Shown here: in pieces, positions 30,001 through 48,000 of the stretch | Layout: each line of letters opens with the position of its first letter | Position numbering within the stretch: position 1 is the first letter of the stretch | DNA from: Escherichia phage ETEC-TG | DNA: 64,000 nt | Sequence record: OR786310.1 | Direction: 5' to 3' (one strand) | Program-made: the position numbers

Positions 30001-33000
30001 ATAGGTGCAGCCTTTTAAAAGGAGATATGGCATGACTAAACGCACTGATTTTAAATGTATGCATTGTGGGAAATCTTTTGGGGATCATCAAGCTCGCACA
30101 TTCAACTGTCCACGTAAAGGTCGCGGAAATTTTAAAGGTTTTAATCCCGCACATGTTTATTCTCCAGATTACGATAAGCCAGAAGAAGAAAAATTTGTTA
30201 TTTAATAAGGAGGTCATATGGAACTCGTTCAAGAACTGTATAATGCTTTAGGAGCAAAAGGAAAAGATTGGCCCGAACATGCGCTTATTGCTATAAGAGA
30301 CTCCGATGGTGAGATTAAGTTTTCAAGCGTAAGTAAAGAGCACATCGTAGAAACAAAACTGGGTATTTACATGCGTGGAACTTATTGTTTATTCAACACC
30401 AGAATGGTAGAAGCTCCTGTTATTGAAGATGGAACAAAAGATTGCCCCACAATCGTAACAAAAGCTGAATATGAGAAGTTTTTCTACGCTAAGGCTTGAC
30501 ACAGAAACAATACTATAGGATAGTGATCCTATCGTAGCAATAGAACCCGCTTCGGCGGGTTTTTTCATATCTGTAGCAATAGGAGGTCGTGTGTTAAATA
30601 AAATCGAAGAAGGTTGTATGGCATTTTTGGTAGATAACCCGTTTCCCTTTATGGTTAAGGTCCATGTAGGAGAGTATTTAGGTTATGACGAATGGGATTG
30701 TAGTATCAATAGTGAAATGCACCACTACCAACCAACAATACTTAAGACGGATCAAATGGCGCGTATTACAGTAGAGGATGAATTGATCATTGAGTTATAC
30801 GAGAGAGCACTACACAAGTAAGCTAGAACCCACCTAAATCGAACAGAGACGCTCTAAAATAGAAAAGGCACCCACTTGGGTGCCTTTGTTTTATTCTTCG
30901 TTAGATTACGTTTCAGACGCGTTAAATTCGGTTTCAGTACAACTTGCTAGGTAACTTATGTTTTGCATCACTACAACTACAGGTGTTTGAAGTTTATCTT
31001 CTAACCCCGCAGCCACTTGAGCCAAGGCATTATCAATATTTGATTTCCTAACGCCTGTTCCATGTCCTGTTGCCAAGTAAAGATTACCTTCGCCTTTTTG
31101 TGTGGCATTGGCAAAGTAGTAAACGTAATGTGCAAGGTAGTAATCACGGATTTCTTCAGTCATTTTATTCTCCTAATAAGAAAGGGGCCGAAGCCCCTTG
31201 AGTGGTTTATTTGTTTAAGTGGTCTTCGACCATTTTAATGAAACCTTCATTGCTGAAGGCTGTTGCAGCTTTTTCTCGGTAAACAAAAACTCCACGATCT
31301 TCATAGAGAAGTGTTTCTTCGTAATTAACTCCAGGGTTAACTACAACCATTTTTGTACCCATACTAAGTGCAGGAAATAATTCCCAATTAAAATTGATAA
31401 CTTGGTTTGAACATCCTACTACTACAACCAAATCTTGCATGGTCAAAGTATCGAACAAGTGAGCCATATCTGCATACAAAGGTGCAGCCTCACCAAAAAA
31501 TACAACATTAGGCTTCACCCAGTTATAATCATCTATGTTTATACTATTGTAACCGATATCTACCAGTGTTTTGTAATCTCCAGGATGCATACGGTAAACC
31601 ACTTCAGGAAGATATCCGTGCACGTGAATAACAGAATCTCTGTCTACACCTGCTCGCTCTAGTAGATCATCAACGTTTGTTGTCAAGTTTACTACTTGGT
31701 TAGGATATTCTTTAAACCATTTTGCTATTTGAATATGTGCAGCATTAGGCTGTACATCTTTAAGTTCAACACGTCTTTTGTTATAAAATTCGTGTGTTTT
31801 GGCATACAAATCCATGCCGTTCTCGTCTACACCACCGACCACTGGAAGATCTGGAGATGTTCTAACACGATAACCTGCTTGGAAAGCTCCAATATCGCAG
31901 ACCTCTTCTAAATCATATTCTTCCCATAAGGCACGACCACTGTCGGTGTCTGTTCGGAATGTTCTAATACCACTATCTGCACTTAAACCTGCACCGCTTA
32001 CAAAAATCACTCGTCTTGGCATTCTTCCTCCTCAAATGGATCATAAGAATCGTACTCGTAAGTATCATCTTCTGAAAATTCTACTTCGAAATAAATATCA
32101 AACTCTGCAAACAGACGTAGGATGTTAGACATGCTGTAATAATTATCGTAGGCAGATTCAGCTTCATAGTAAACATAAAGCAAATGGTTAGCCTTATCAT
32201 CTTCCAAATATTTCCCGTCTGCATACGCATAGTCTGCATATGCTTTACCTGCATCTTCCACAAGAGAACGATCAAGCAGAGTAGGAAATGGTTTCTCTTT
32301 TTCTTTTAGTTTGCTCACCAACCAATGTGCAATATCATTCCATTCTGCATCCATACCACTAAAGCAACTTGCTTCTTCTCCAAAAGAAGCTTCTCCTAAA
32401 TCGCCACTAATACGAACAACATTAGATGAATTATAGCCACACGTTTCACAATCAGAGTAACTATTATGCACATTGACATTTACTTGAAACATATTCCCTC
32501 CTATAAAAGAAAAGCCCCCTGAAACAGGAGGCTTTGTTCAGATATCGGCACTATACCAGACTTTCAAGGTATTTGTCAAGGGCTTCTTGATCACCTTGAC
32601 AAACATAGCAACGGAAGTCTTGAGCCGAAGGTTGTTTATTTTCATCCCAGTCCCAATAAACATTACCCTTATAACGTGAACCAGGAAACTCAAAAGAGGC
32701 TGTATGTGTAATGTACCCTGGGCCACCAGTGAAATCACAGAATGAGAATTGGGGGTATGCCGCCTTTACTGCCTCAATAAACCAAGCTTTACGATCTAAA
32801 GCTTCATTGATGCTATACGCATGTCTCTCCATTTCTTCCCACGTTTTCCAGACACTTCTCTCATCAGGAGAAAAGACAAGCCATTCTGGAAGGTATAGAG
32901 TGTCATAGTAATCATCATATTCGATCTCGGAGGCGCACGAAGCTGACTCCTCCAGTTTTGAGTAATCAAAAGCAGAATATACCCACCAACCATCTTCCAG

Positions 33001-45000: not shown

Positions 45001-48000
45001 AGGAACCACTTTACGTAAAGCTTGTCCCAGTTGTCCATTACCACCCAATACCAGATATGTTAGCATACACCCTCACTACGCAACTGTTGAAAAGATTTAG
45101 CCATTGCATCTTTTGTTGATAAGATAGGTTTAAAATCTTCATCAAAAATCATATCAAAGCCCCAATCGATCCCTATATCAGGATCATCCCAACGTAAACT
45201 TTGTTCGCTAGAAGGGTCGTATGGAGTTGTGCATTTGTATTCAAAGATAGCATCCATACTCAAAACTATAAAACCATGTGCCAAACCAGGTGGAAGCCAA
45301 AATTGCGTATGGTGTCGTGCACGAAGAACAACACCGTCCCAAGCACCGTAAGTTGGACTATCTTTACGTAAATCTACAGCGAAATCCAATACTTCTCCAC
45401 TTACACAACGAACAAGCTTACCTTGCGGGTTGTTTGTTTGGAAGTGCATTCCTCGCAAAACACCGAAGTTTGATTTAGACATGTTATCTTGAACGAAAGT
45501 TTGTCTACCAATAATATCTTCGTATTTTTGTTCATTGTATGTTTCTAAAAAGAAACCACGATCATCTTTATAAACGTCTGGTTTGATAATTACCGCACCT
45601 TCAATTTTTGTTTTTTCTACTTTCATTTTCTCTCCTTACCAGACATGTTGAGAAATAATAGTTTCCGTTTTAATGTTATATTTTTCAAGTAGCTCTGCAT
45701 AGGCTTCTTTTGCATTCTCATTTAATTGCTCAAGATCTACAGCTACGCTTCCTTCTCCGCCTTCTAAATAAATACCATATATGCAATAAGACTCATCAGC
45801 ATCGTAGAAAGGAGAGATGCGACTTAAGTCCAGACCTTCTTGTAAGAACCAGTTAAAATCTCCGTCAAATTCTTCTTCAATTCTAGGATCTTCTCCTACA
45901 GCCTCTTCCCACTTATTAAAAGGTGCACCCTGTAACATACGCCATTCGATATCAATACCCATTTTTCATCTCCTCCTCTTGAGCAGCTTTAATAATTGCT
46001 TCATAAATATCGTAAGCAATGCCTCCACAACATCTAGCTTCGAAAGCTATTGCTTCTGCAATGTGGTCTGTTAGTTCTCGTGGAATTCGGACATACTCTT
46101 TTTCACTCTCCATCTTCTACCTCCGACCCTGCTTTTTCAAATACTACTACTCGTCCTTCACCATGACAATTCAGGCAAGGAAATGTTACCATAATTTCCA
46201 CTTCCATCTGTCCAGTCCCACCACACACAGGACAAAAAATAAGTTTTTCAGCCATTATTCCTCCTTAATTATTTCAAACTTGGCAACACCATTTACAATA
46301 ATATGACCACAAGACATAACTCCTAGCCAAGGATCGCCGTTTTTCTTCAGGCGTTTACCGAATACATCACAAAAACCATTCTTCATTTCGGAGGCTTCAT
46401 AAGAAGCCCCTTTGTCAAAAACGTCTTTGAATGTGTCGATTATACCAACACATCTCAAAATCATTAGAAGTCAAGCTCCTCATCATCAGAGAGATCTTTG
46501 TTAGCTGAATTCAATTTGTAATTAGTTAACTGAATCTCTTGGGCTGCTGACTGAATCAAATCAGGATTCAACCATTTTTCCATCCAAGCTAAAGGACTAT
46601 GTTTAGGTGCTTTAAACTTGGCTTTCATTTTCAATCGACGATAAATAGGAGCAGCATTGAAATAAACCCACTGTTTAGACAATTCGGCGTTAAGACCTAC
46701 AATAAAACGACCTTCACTAAACAGGTAGTCACACCACTGTTCCTCTTGTTCAACAACAGTGTCGAGGATCAAAGTCAACTCTTCAATATTGTCTTCGTAA
46801 ATTTTACGCCAAATTGGGTCATGCATCAATGCATCAATTACAGCATAATCCATCTTAACATGCAAGATTTCATCTAGCATAATTTTCTGGATCAGCTTAC
46901 AAGCCCCAACAAACAATTGTTGTTCTGCCATAGCAAAAGTAGCAGAGAAGGAAGATATAAACTGAATACCTTCTAATCCAATCAGGGCTACCATCCCTTT
47001 AAGAATCAGCAATCGAAGTTCATCGTTAGCTTCAATCAATCCTAGAGCATACTTATGACCAGCTTCTTCCAACTGACCCATGATATCAGCAATGATACCC
47101 ATACGATTGAAAATTTTATCATTAATCATAATCTGATTGATGACTTCAATTGGATCTGGAGTACATTGACGGATTATTTCAGAATACGTTAACGCATGGA
47201 GAACTTCCATTTCACTCTGCTTCATCATCATAGCACAGGCTTCATTGTTACTCAAGAATGGAGAGAACAAAGTGATGATTGATTTTGCAAGAGAATCATT
47301 TTCCCATTGGAACGATAAGTTTTTAATCATAACATCGTAGTTGTTTTTAGAACAAGCTACGAAATCTTTACGTGTCTGATCCAAGTTAACTTCGTTTTCA
47401 TCCCAATCTTGTGCTTTTTGAAGTTTGTAGAGTTTGTGCATTTCTGGATAAGTTACGTTAACAGAATCAAAGATCCCTAATTGCTCCCCCAAAAATACTG
47501 GATATTTTCCTGTTTTGTAAACTTCGTTGTGTAAATTAATTGCTGCCATTTAAAATTCTCCTCGATAAAAAGGGGCCGAAGCCCCTTTATATTTAGCCTC
47601 GAAATACTGTTTTTGTTTCCGCCAGGTGCCAATAGAAATCCGCCTTGTTTACAAGAGTGTTGTACACCTCTGGATAAAAATGTTCTTCCTCTTTGTAACG
47701 ATCCGCTGTTTCCCTGATTGACTTAGCTTTATCCTTTAGCCAAGCGAAGTGTGCCTCTTCCTCTGTAGCGAAGTAGCCTAAATGCTTACCTTTACTTCCA
47801 GAAGCTTTTGCATAAATCTTACCATCTTTCCTAACATGTGCTCCTAGTAAGTATTTTCTTTCATACCTTTTAGCATAACTTAAGAGTGTATTTATGTAAG
47901 GAGGAACAAACCTACAATATTCAGGACAATAAACAGTATTTCCTTCAAGAACAAGATCTTTATCTAAAACAAAGCCTTCCACGCTATGTTCTTGATACCA

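What the first reader, a model, noticed from the sequence alone, without database searches (positions are those of the whole stretch)
31182..47590. Identical GGGGC-UUCG-GCCCC hairpins between minus-strand genes
The element GGGGCCGAAGCCCC (a UUCG tetraloop in the minus-sense RNA) occurs three times (31182-31199, 43281-43299, 47567-47590), each between a stop codon and the next gene's SD. A related CCCGC-UUCG-GCGGG occurs at 35283-35300 and, on the plus strand, at 30545-30560. Only the 47567-47590 copy has a clear U-run, so most are more likely RNA processing or stability elements than full terminators. The exact repeats could also be recombination hotspots.
Basis: seen in the sequence. Interest (0 to 1): 0.4.

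Follow-up and report, generated by a model that had tools for sequence, protein, structure and literature searches.

The report
Ordinary UUCG-loop transcription terminator hairpins
The repeated GGGGC-UUCG-GCCCC elements are real, but they are ordinary terminator-type RNA hairpins between phage genes, of a kind described in phage T4 in 1988 and already annotated as terminators in a near-identical published phage genome.

Summary
GGGGCCGAAGCCCC occurs three times and CCCGC-UUCG-GCGGG twice, at the stated coordinates, against 0 expected by chance.

The window comes from a Phapecoctavirus, a phAPEC8-like E. coli myovirus. All seven hairpins are intergenic and read UUCG on the transcribed strand. 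They fold at -11 to -13 kcal/mol.

GenBank MZ726793 (phage ASO2A) annotates sequences identical to five of them (and to all but 2 nt of a sixth) as rho-independent terminators, and a one-base variant of a seventh. Only the 43281 copy is not annotated.

At orthologous sites in other genera the G/C stem core is kept while the loop switches between UUCG, GAAA, GUAA and GGAA. G·U pairs exist only in the sense RNA. Both facts point to selection at the RNA level.

The exact 18-mer occurs in at least 120 unrelated viral contigs, so the identical copies reflect convergence on an optimal hairpin, not a mobile repeat.

The hairpins are most likely leaky terminators that also protect mRNA 3' ends. Six of the seven sit 2-8 nt after a stop codon, and five of those six have no room for a promoter downstream. 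RNase III sites are unlikely because the stems are too short. The recombination-hotspot idea has no support. Low interest; already known.

The parts
31182..31199 (-). HP1: AAGGGGC-UUCG-GCCCCUU, between the Sir2-like gene (31207-32022) and the 85-aa ORF (30906-31163). It lies 7 nt after the stop codon and 18 nt before the ATG. Tail UUUCUUAUU.
   Evidence: (-12.7 kcal/mol). The identical sequence is annotated as a rho-independent terminator in MZ726793. The phi92 and Klebsiella-phage orthologues keep the stem with a GAAA loop.
43281..43298 (-). HP2: AAGGGGC-UUCG-GCCCCUU, between the lysozyme gene (43301-43801) and PhoH (ATG at 43263). It lies 2 nt after the stop codon and 17 nt before the ATG. 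Poor tail (UUCUAAAAG). This is the weakest terminator candidate and most likely acts mainly as a stabiliser or insulator.
   Evidence: The stem is identical in phi92 (GAAA loop) and in Klebsiella phage phi1_175008 (GUAA loop). It is not annotated as a terminator in MZ726793, where the PhoH CDS was called across it.
47569..47588 (-). HP3: AAAGGGGC-UUCG-GCCCCUUU plus UU, between the HNH endonuclease ORF (47593-48249) and nrdB (46464-47549). It lies 4 nt after the stop codon and 19 nt before the ATG.
   Evidence: (-16.5 kcal/mol with flanks). Eleven sequences from two subfamilies (three named genera plus unclassified relatives) carry a hairpin after nrdA with invariant GGGG/CCCC and loops UUCG, UUCA, GAAA, GGAA or CUUUGU. 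The ASO2A orthologue is annotated as a terminator.
35283..35300 (-). HP4: AACCCGC-UUCG-GCGGGUU plus UUUUAUU. A canonical intrinsic terminator, 8 nt after the stop codon of the 35309-35581 gene.
   Evidence: (z = -4.2). Annotated as a terminator in MZ726793. Conserved in phi92 and in the Klebsiella phage.
35249..35277 (-). Sigma-70-like promoter TTGACA-17 nt-TAAACT (with TG) directly after HP4. Together they form a terminator-then-restart unit ahead of gene 34277-35218.
   Evidence: The TTGACA is conserved in phi92. The same junction, UUUUUAUUGACA, follows the terminator at 54361-54379. This is a consensus match only; function is inferred.
30542..30563 (+). HP5: AGAACCCGC-UUCG-GCGGGUUUU plus UU, on the plus-strand gene block. 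It lies 42 nt after the stop codon of 30218-30499 and 27 nt before the GTG of 30591-30821.
   Evidence: Annotated as a terminator in MZ726793. The phi92 orthologue has UUCG and the Klebsiella phage has a CUAGU loop on the same stem.
41256..41271 (-). It lies 5 nt after the stop codon.
   Evidence: (z = -4.2). Annotated as a terminator in MZ726793. The Klebsiella-phage orthologue is AAUGCCC-UUCG-GGGCAUU.
39821..39844 (-). The UUCG loop is closed by a U·G pair. It lies 7 nt after the stop codon.
   Evidence: Annotated as a terminator in MZ726793, where the feature covers 39813-39842 and so omits the two outermost 5' stem bases.
32511..32535 (-). Context: a non-UUCG terminator hairpin, AAAGCCUCCUG-UUU-CAGGGGGCUUU plus UCUUUUAU. 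It shows that the UUCG set is part of a larger terminator repertoire.
30864..30887 (.). Context: a bidirectional terminator, AAAGGCACCC-loop-GGGUGCCUUU, at the point where the plus-strand and minus-strand gene blocks converge.
   Evidence: (GC-skew switch).

Best explanation
These are rho-independent (intrinsic) terminator-type hairpins in the phage's early/middle mRNAs, capped by the hyperstable C(UUCG)G tetraloop.

As the polymerase (inferred to be host RNA polymerase) transcribes each intergenic gap, the 6-10 bp stem folds. Where a U-rich tract follows, a fraction of polymerases release. This is strong at 35283 and 30542, moderate at 31182, 47569 and 41256, and weak at 39821 and 43281.

Six of the seven hairpins start only 2-8 nt after the upstream stop codon. 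A closely following ribosome would therefore mask the 5' arm and suppress termination. Five of those six have no room for a promoter downstream, so they must be leaky and act as graded dampers inside long operons.

Whether the 3' end arises by termination or by later cleavage, the same hairpin would protect the upstream message from 3'-to-5' exonucleases.

The identical copies are independent solutions to the same requirement (A-tract, GGGGC, UUCG, GCCCC, U-tract), not copies of a mobile or recombining element.

Shown here: location, strand, fold, conservation pattern and prior annotation. Inferred: actual termination, read-through levels and the stabilising effect.
For: 1. All seven UUCG hairpins are intergenic and all read UUCG on the transcribed strand, including the single plus-strand copy in the plus-strand block. 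Intergenic DNA is about 11% of the window by a crude gene call.

2. The hairpins alone fold at -11.2 to -13.3 kcal/mol. With flanks the z-scores are -2.0 to -4.2.

3. U-rich tails follow six of the seven.

4. GenBank MZ726793 annotates sequences identical to five of them (and to all but 2 nt of a sixth), and a one-base variant of a seventh, as rho-independent terminators predicted by TransTermHP and WebGeSTer.

5. At orthologous sites in phi92, Klebsiella phage phi1_175008, PVP-SE1 and IMG/VR relatives, the G/C core of the stem is kept while flanks diverge. At most of these sites (all tetraloop variants except ASO2A's UUCA) the loops change only among stable tetraloops read in the sense direction: UUCG, GAAA, GUAA, GGAA. 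Non-tetraloop variants also occur (CUAGU in the Klebsiella orthologue of HP5, CUUUGU/UUU in L130/L131).

6. G·U pairs, which would be A·C mismatches on the other strand, occur in HP5, HP7, phi92 22135 and Klebsiella phage 2696.

7. The exact 18-mer AAGGGGCTTCGGCCCCTT occurs in at least 120 IMG/VR contigs of 21-65% GC. None resembles the window. Most copies have U-rich tails and many are followed directly by SD + ATG.

8. In the six minus-strand hairpins the gap from stop codon to stem is 2-8 nt. For lambda tR2, a 5-bp gap cut termination from about 90% to under 10% through ribosome occlusion (PMC4824070).

9. C(UUCG)G hairpins are reported as abundant in phage intergenic regions, especially in T4, with terminator and stabiliser roles (Tuerk et al. 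1988, as summarised in PMC8948821).

10. Phage terminators measured by ONT-cappable-seq show a wide range of read-through and also raise expression of the upstream gene (PMC10204088).
Against: No transcript 3'-end data for this phage group were found, so termination itself is inferred.

HP2 has a poor U-tract, was not among the terminators annotated in MZ726793 (where the PhoH CDS was called across it), and may not terminate at all.

The stems are invariant across relatives, so there is no compensatory covariation to prove pairing. The support comes from loop-class switching and strand-specific G·U pairs instead.

The ribosome-occlusion step is extrapolated from a reporter study of one terminator.
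Confidence: 0.82

Rival explanations
1. The hairpins are pure mRNA stability or processing elements that do not terminate transcription. They would act only as 3'-exonuclease barriers after RNase E cleavage in the AU-rich flanks, or as RNase III sites.
For: HP2 has only 3 U in the 9 nt after the stem, and HP7 and HP6 have 5. Five of the six minus-strand copies have no room for a promoter before the next gene, so full termination would silence downstream genes. Hairpins 2-8 nt after a stop codon are expected to terminate poorly when translation is coupled (PMC4824070). T4 CUUCGG hairpins are known to stabilise mRNA (PMC8948821).
Against: Four of the seven have U-tracts as good as textbook terminators, and six are predicted as terminators by two independent programs in MZ726793. 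HP4 is followed directly by a promoter-like site, as expected for a real stop followed by a restart. Stems of 6-10 bp are too short for RNase III (established knowledge). This reading is plausible for HP2 but not as a general account.
Confidence: 0.15
2. The exact repeats are DNA-level recombination substrates, like the promoter/stem-loop (PeSL) cassettes of T4-type phages. They would mediate deletion, insertion or shuffling of the gene modules between them.
For: Three 18-bp identical direct repeats lie 12.1 kb and 4.3 kb apart. An indel relative to Mt1B1_P17 starts exactly at the upstream edge of HP3, at 47586/47587. [quoted passage not shown] Short-homology deletion does happen in this lineage: the rmlA/rmlB loss joins at TTCTCC. 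PeSL stem-loops of the form A3-4G3-loop-C3T3-4 are documented recombination sites (PMC2839356, PMC4122927).
Against: There is no homology beyond the hairpin among the three copies. HP1 and HP3 share in addition only the U-tract and SD. None of the three has an adjacent promoter, which is a defining part of a PeSL. The HP3 indel is an HNH endonuclease gene (phrog_953, E = 1.5e-56), and its other boundary lies 31 nt inside nrdA. That pattern fits homing-endonuclease insertion rather than hairpin-to-hairpin exchange. The listed alignments from 135 related phage records showed no deletion spanning 31182 to 43281 or 43281 to 47569, although this was not checked systematically. The only other indel in the region is not at a hairpin. 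The same 18-mer in 120 or more unrelated contigs points to convergence.
Confidence: 0.08
3. The palindromes are double-stranded DNA binding sites, such as operators for a dimeric phage regulator, or DNA cruciforms, rather than RNA structures.
For: They are near-perfect 14-18 bp inverted repeats in intergenic DNA, repeated in identical form.
Against: There is a strict strand bias: the UUCG reading is always on the transcribed strand, in 7 of 7 cases. At most orthologous sites loop substitutions stay within tetraloop classes that are stable only in the sense RNA reading. G·U pairs become A·C mismatches on the opposite strand. The identical 18-mer is present in very diverse, unrelated viruses.
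Confidence: 0.02

Closest known systems
Rho-independent (intrinsic) terminators of E. coli and its phages, such as lambda tR2, including those with UUCG or GNRA tetraloops
   Same: A G/C-rich stem of 6-10 bp with a 4-nt stable loop. An A-tract lies upstream and a U-tract downstream. The hairpin follows a stop codon on the sense strand. Standard predictors recognise it.
   Different: Most copies lie inside long co-directional gene strings, 2-8 nt after a stop codon and 14-24 nt before the next start. They are therefore expected to be partial rather than operon-ending. HP2 lacks a proper U-tract.
C(UUCG)G hairpins of phage T4 intercistronic regions (Tuerk et al. 1988, PNAS 85:1364; cited through PMC8948821)
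   Same: The same loop and closing pair, short complementary arms, a predominantly intergenic location in a large lytic coliphage, and association with termination and mRNA stability.
   Different: This is a different phage lineage (Stephanstirmvirinae, not Tequatrovirus). No biochemical data exist here. One copy (HP7) has a U·G closing pair instead of C-G.
PeSL (promoter-early / stem-loop) cassettes of T4-type phages (Arbiol et al. 2010, PMC2839356; Comeau et al. 2014, PMC4122927)
   Same: Repeated, nearly identical A(n)G(n)-loop-C(n)T(n) terminator stem-loops between small or accessory genes. HP4 and the 54361-54379 terminator are fused to a TTGACA promoter element.
   Different: The three identical GGGGC copies have no promoter and no shared AT-rich segment. 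No indel in the relatives examined is bounded by two hairpins. Mini-circles could not be tested. A better PeSL analogue in this window is the promoter + leader-hairpin array at about 1000-9200.
RNase III processing hairpins of T7-like phages (R1.1 and others)
   Same: Intergenic stem-loops in polycistronic phage mRNA that leave a protective 3' hairpin.
   Different: RNase III sites are about 20 bp or longer, often with internal loops. These stems are 6-10 bp with a tetraloop.

Membership tests
Rho-independent (intrinsic) terminator | A stable G/C-rich stem-loop in the nascent RNA | tested here: met
   All seven fold as single hairpins at -11.2 to -13.3 kcal/mol. With flanks the z-scores are -2.0 to -4.2 against shuffles.
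Rho-independent (intrinsic) terminator | A U-rich tract of about 7-9 nt immediately 3' of the stem | tested here: inconclusive
   Met for 35283 (8 of 9 U), 30542 (7 of 9), 31182 (7 of 9) and 47569 (6 of 9). Marginal for 41256 and 39821 (5 of 9). Not met for 43281 (3 of 9). Read directly.
Rho-independent (intrinsic) terminator | Located downstream of a coding region on the transcribed strand | tested here: met
   Seven of seven are intergenic and in sense orientation, 2-42 nt after a stop codon.
Rho-independent (intrinsic) terminator | Called by established terminator predictors | tested here: met
   Sequences identical to five of them are annotated as 'rho-independent terminator predicted by TransTermHP v2.09 and WebGeSTer' in MZ726793, as is a feature covering all but the two outermost 5' stem bases of HP7. 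The HP3 orthologue (UUCA loop) is annotated too. HP2 is not.
Rho-independent (intrinsic) terminator | Transcript 3' ends and polymerase release at the site | not testable with these tools
   No transcriptome or Term-seq data for Phapecoctavirus or Justusliebigvirus were found.
C(UUCG)G hyperstable tetraloop hairpin (Tuerk 1988) | A UUCG loop closed by a C-G pair, with 2-8 complementary flanking pairs | tested here: met
   Six of the seven have C(UUCG)G. HP7 has U(UUCG)G.
PeSL recombination cassette (T4-type phages) | A strong sigma-70-like early promoter fused to the stem-loop | tested here: not met
   Only HP4 has TTGACA-17-TAAACT after it. The three identical copies have just 17-19 nt, holding only an SD, before the next ATG.
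PeSL recombination cassette (T4-type phages) | Indels between close relatives bounded by pairs of the cassettes | tested here: not met
   The indel at HP3 has its other end inside nrdA and carries an HNH endonuclease gene. The rmlA/rmlB indel joins at an SD microhomology.
RNase III processing site | A double-stranded stem of about two helical turns | tested here: not met
   The stems are 6-10 bp. The substrate-length requirement comes from established knowledge.
Mobile repeat (MITE / REP-like element) | Shared sequence beyond the hairpin, with terminal repeats or target duplications | tested here: not met
   Identity among the three copies ends at the 18-nt hairpin. The repeat family extends only into the U-tract and SD, at 64-85% identity. 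There are no Rfam family hits in the window.

The most novel reading that the evidence does not exclude
The hairpins' placement 2-8 nt after stop codons may be a designed feature that makes them translation-gated attenuators. They would terminate only polymerases that have outrun the ribosome, and so set the relative dosage of neighbouring genes such as nrdA versus nrdB, or lysozyme versus PhoH. In addition, the identical 18-mers might occasionally serve as PeSL-like short-homology crossover points for module exchange between Stephanstirmvirinae genomes.
Probability: 0.12. Interest if true: 0.3.

Novelty: already known. Interest (0 to 1): 0.1.

Why it matters
It matters little beyond annotation. 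The hairpins mark sub-operon boundaries in the early/middle gene block of a therapeutically used coliphage genus. They settle one start-codon call: PhoH begins at 43263, not 43314. They also supply a set of short natural terminators of graded predicted strength. The loop switching between UUCG and GNRA-type tetraloops on an invariant stem across genera illustrates selection on hairpin stability, but it does not change current understanding.

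Tried and rejected
- An Rfam scan of the whole window found no family at the gathering threshold. ARAGORN found no tRNA or tmRNA. The hairpins are therefore not parts of a known structured RNA.
- I looked for extended homology around the three identical copies, to test duplication or a mobile element. There is none beyond the hairpin.
- I tested covariation at the site after nrdA in 11 relatives. The stems are invariant, so covariation is uninformative. I used loop-class switching and strand-specific G·U pairs instead.
- The sigma-70 promoter scan found 64 sites against 55.6 ± 6.8 expected in shuffles, which is no enrichment. 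I relied only on the intergenic, conserved site after HP4.
- Pfam and PDB sequence searches of ORF 47593-48249 found nothing. PHROGs identified it as an HNH endonuclease.
- Literature searches for transcriptomes of Phapecoctavirus or Stephanstirmvirinae found none. Tuerk et al. 1988 (PMC279771) is not held in the library, so it is cited through PMC8948821.
- I considered RNase III sites, DNA operators and PeSL membership, and rejected each for the reasons given in the membership tests.

Full report
**Observation.** GGGGCCGAAGCCCC occurs at 31184, 43283 and 47572. CCCGCCGAAGCGGG occurs at 35285, and its complement at 30546. Each pattern has 0 matches expected in dinucleotide-preserving shuffles. 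Read on the minus strand, the first four are G/C stems closed around a UUCG loop. The 30546 copy reads UUCG on the plus strand. Of the 21 CUUCGG hexamers in the window, only these have G/C-rich complementary arms. All of them are intergenic and on the transcribed strand.

**Context.** The window is 97-99.7% identical to Phapecoctavirus genomes: phAPEC8-like, roughly 150-kb E. coli myoviruses of the Stephanstirmvirinae. Plus-strand genes run to about 30.8 kb and minus-strand genes from about 30.9 kb onward, with a GC-skew switch at that point.

The hairpins lie at these gene junctions:
- Sir2-like gene | 85-aa ORF (HP1, 31182)
- lysozyme | PhoH (HP2, 43281)
- HNH endonuclease | nrdB (HP3, 47569)
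- two hypothetical genes (HP4, 35283)
- two small plus-strand genes (HP5, 30542)
- HslV-like peptidase | hypothetical gene (HP6, 41256)
- two small genes (HP7, 39821)

HP2 falls inside a CDS only if the long PhoH start at 43314 is used, as in the ASO2A record. In phi92 and in Klebsiella phage phi1_175008 that extension is closed by a stop codon and has no start codon. The conserved start is therefore MGNK at 43263, preceded by AAGGAG, and HP2 is intergenic.

**Anatomy.** The hairpins alone fold at -11.2 to -13.3 kcal/mol. With flanks the minimum-free-energy structure is the same hairpin, at z = -2.0 to -4.2.

| Hairpin | U in the 9 nt after the last G-C pair |
|---|---|
| HP4 | 8 |
| HP5 | 7 |
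| HP1 | 7 |
| HP3 | 6 |
| HP6 | 5 |
| HP7 | 5 |
| HP2 | 3 |

(Read.)

In the six minus-strand copies the gap from stop codon to stem is 2-8 nt. In five of them the stem-to-ATG distance is 14-24 nt and holds only an SD. HP4 has a 64-nt spacer that begins with TTGACA-17-TAAACT. The window also has non-UUCG terminators: 32511-32535, the bidirectional 30864-30887, 53568-53588, 54361-54379 and 56698-56721. The UUCG set is therefore about half of a normal terminator repertoire.

**Prior annotation.** GenBank MZ726793 (phage vB_EcoM_ASO2A; PMC10612097) carries regulatory features labelled 'rho-independent terminator predicted by TransTermHP v2.09 and WebGeSTer'. The sequences of these features are found unchanged in the window at the positions of HP5, HP1, HP4, HP7 and HP6, at 32511-32535, at the bidirectional hairpin, and at several sites beyond 51 kb. 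The HP7 feature covers 39813-39842, so it omits the two outermost 5' stem bases, and the features at 32511-32535 and the bidirectional hairpin each omit the outermost base. The ASO2A orthologue of HP3, which has a UUCA loop, is annotated the same way. Only HP2 is not annotated.

**Comparative evidence.** At orthologous junctions in phi92 (Justusliebigvirus), Klebsiella phage phi1_175008, PVP-SE1 (Vequintavirinae) and six IMG/VR relatives, the G/C core of the stem is retained while flanks diverge. Mostly the loop changes only among tetraloops that are stable in the sense reading.

| Junction | Window | phi92 | Klebsiella phage |
|---|---|---|---|
| After Sir2 | UUCG | GAAA | GAAA |
| Lysozyme / PhoH | UUCG | GAAA | GUAA |

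After nrdA, the loops seen are UUCG (window, Mt1B1_P17, PVP-SE1, L126), UUCA (ASO2A), GGAA (Klebsiella phage), GAAA (L127-L129) and CUUUGU (L130, L131). phi92 has a U·G closing pair.

Because GGGG/CCCC is invariant, there is no compensatory covariation to count. Two features still argue for selection on the RNA rather than the DNA duplex. First, the variant tetraloops (apart from ASO2A's UUCA) fall in the UNCG and GNRA classes only when read on the sense strand. Second, G·U pairs appear that would be A·C mismatches on the other strand (HP5, HP7, phi92 22135, Klebsiella phage 2696).

**Why the copies are identical.** The three copies share nothing beyond AAGGGGCUUCGGCCCCUU. HP1 and HP3 additionally resemble each other only through the U-tract and the SD AGGAGAAU. 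Those contigs range from 21% to 65% GC and none has megablast similarity to the window. Most copies carry U-rich tails and many are followed at once by SD + ATG. The sequence is therefore a common optimum (A-tract, G-rich 5' arm, C(UUCG)G, C-rich 3' arm, U-tract) reached repeatedly, not a lineage-specific repeat. A second identical terminator family on the plus strand, AAGGGCGC-ACCAA-GCGCCCUU at 5502, 10898 and 11462, is likewise limited to the hairpin.

**Mechanism.** The best-supported reading is intrinsic termination of graded strength by the transcribing polymerase (inferred to be host RNA polymerase), plus 3'-end protection. Three points support leakiness:
- Five of the six minus-strand hairpins leave no room for a downstream promoter, so the downstream genes require read-through.
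- The stems begin 2-8 nt after the stop codon. In a reporter study of lambda tR2, moving the stop codon to 5 bp from the stem lowered termination from about 90% to under 10%, because the ribosome occludes the 5' arm. Uncoupling translation restored termination (PMC4824070).
- Measured phage terminators span 5-99.8% activity and also raise upstream expression through mRNA stabilisation (PMC10204088).

HP4, with six U in a row followed by a promoter-like site, and HP5, with six U in a row and 42 nt after its stop codon, look like efficient stops. HP2 probably acts mainly as a stabiliser or insulator. C(UUCG)G hairpins with these associations were described for T4 and other phages in 1988 (Tuerk et al., summarised in PMC8948821). 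The reported enrichment of UUCG loops among E. coli terminators (d'Aubenton-Carafa et al. 1990) is from my own recollection and was not checked here.

**Rivals.**
- RNase III processing is unlikely because the stems are only 6-10 bp (established knowledge of substrate length).
- RNase E cleavage in the AU-rich flanks cannot be assessed with these tools.
- The recombination-hotspot idea was tested in three ways.
  - Against Mt1B1_P17, the window has a 705-bp insertion at 47587-48291 whose left edge abuts HP3. The insert is an HNH endonuclease gene (phrog_953, E = 1.5e-56) and its right edge lies 31 nt inside nrdA. That pattern fits a free-standing homing endonuclease gene inserted between nrdA and its terminator. 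phi92 has the same arrangement. ASO2A, the Klebsiella phage and IMG/VR relatives instead carry a roughly 110-aa ORF on the other side of the hairpin.
  - The other indel in the region, the loss of rmlA/rmlB at 45631-45635, joins at the SD-type microhomology TTCTCC and not at a hairpin.
  - None of the three identical copies has the promoter that defines PeSL cassettes.
- A DNA-operator reading is contradicted by the strand bias and by the loop and G·U evidence.

**Verdict.** But the elements are ordinary intrinsic-terminator and stabiliser hairpins, already predicted and annotated in a near-identical published genome, and of a class known since 1988. Novelty: already known. Interest: low.

Noticed in passing
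window 1000-9200 (+ strand): About 19 small genes (60-130 aa) are each preceded by the same composite cassette. It runs: an A-rich stretch, TTGACA, 17 nt, TAAACT / TAAGAT / TAATAT, about 6-8 nt, then a G/C-rich hairpin (GGCGGGAA-GUGGU-UUCCCGCC or GGGCGGCA-AUGG-UGCCGCUC) with no U-tract, then an A/G-rich SD and ATG. It looks like an array of strong early promoters, each with a 5'-leader stem-loop. This is a closer analogue of T4-type PeSL cassettes than the UUCG hairpins are.
   Followed up: partly
window 5502-5522, 10898-10918, 11462-11482 (+ strand): A second family of identical terminator hairpins, AAGGGCGC-ACCAA-GCGCCCUU. Two copies have UCUUUUU tails and one does not. Identity is again confined to a 24-nt core.
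   Followed up: partly
window 47593-48249 (- strand): A 218-aa ORF between nrdA and nrdB matches PHROG HNH endonuclease families (phrog_953, E = 1.5e-56) but has no Pfam or PDB sequence hit. It is absent from Mt1B1_P17 and present in phi92 (gp074, annotated there as 'potential transcription factor'). The last 31 nt of nrdA differ along with it. It is probably a free-standing homing endonuclease. In ASO2A and the Klebsiella phage a different roughly 110-aa ORF occupies the other side of the hairpin.
   Followed up: partly
window 45631-45635: The window lacks the rmlA/rmlB genes (glucose-1-phosphate thymidylyltransferase and dTDP-glucose 4,6-dehydratase, about 1.9 kb) that are present in ASO2A, phi92 and many other relatives. 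The deletion junction lies in a shared TTCTCC (SD complement) microhomology next to the start codons.
   Followed up: partly
window 31159-32024 and 45632-45980: The Sir2-like gene plus HP1, and the 108-aa ORF at 45636-45962, are about 90% identical to phi92, whereas neighbouring genes are about 68-72% identical. This suggests recent exchange of single-gene modules between genera, with boundaries at gene edges.
   Followed up: no
window 43263 versus 43314: There is a PhoH start-codon discrepancy among database records. ASO2A uses the upstream ATG, which makes the CDS run through hairpin HP2 and overlap the lysozyme gene. The RefSeq record for Mt1B1_P17, phi92 and the Klebsiella phage use the conserved MGNK start after the hairpin. 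The extension is closed by a stop codon in the other genera.
   Followed up: yes
window 30533-30542 and 30572-30581: A 10-bp direct repeat, GTAGCAATAG, flanks hairpin HP5 on both sides, and a TTGACA-17-GATAGT promoter-like site lies just upstream (30496-30524). The repeat is absent at the phi92 and Klebsiella-phage orthologous sites. It could be chance or the footprint of a small insertion.
   Followed up: partly
window 54349-54379 and 35272-35300 (- strand): The same terminator-to-promoter junction...UUUUUAUUGACA, occurs after two different hairpins (54361-54379 and 35283-35300). It looks like a composite stop-and-restart signal.
   Followed up: no
database hits to window 30000-48300: Records named 'Acinetobacter phage vB_AbaM_ABPW7' (99% identical) and several 'Campylobacter phage' entries (about 72%) match this coliphage group. 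Their host labels look doubtful.
   Followed up: no
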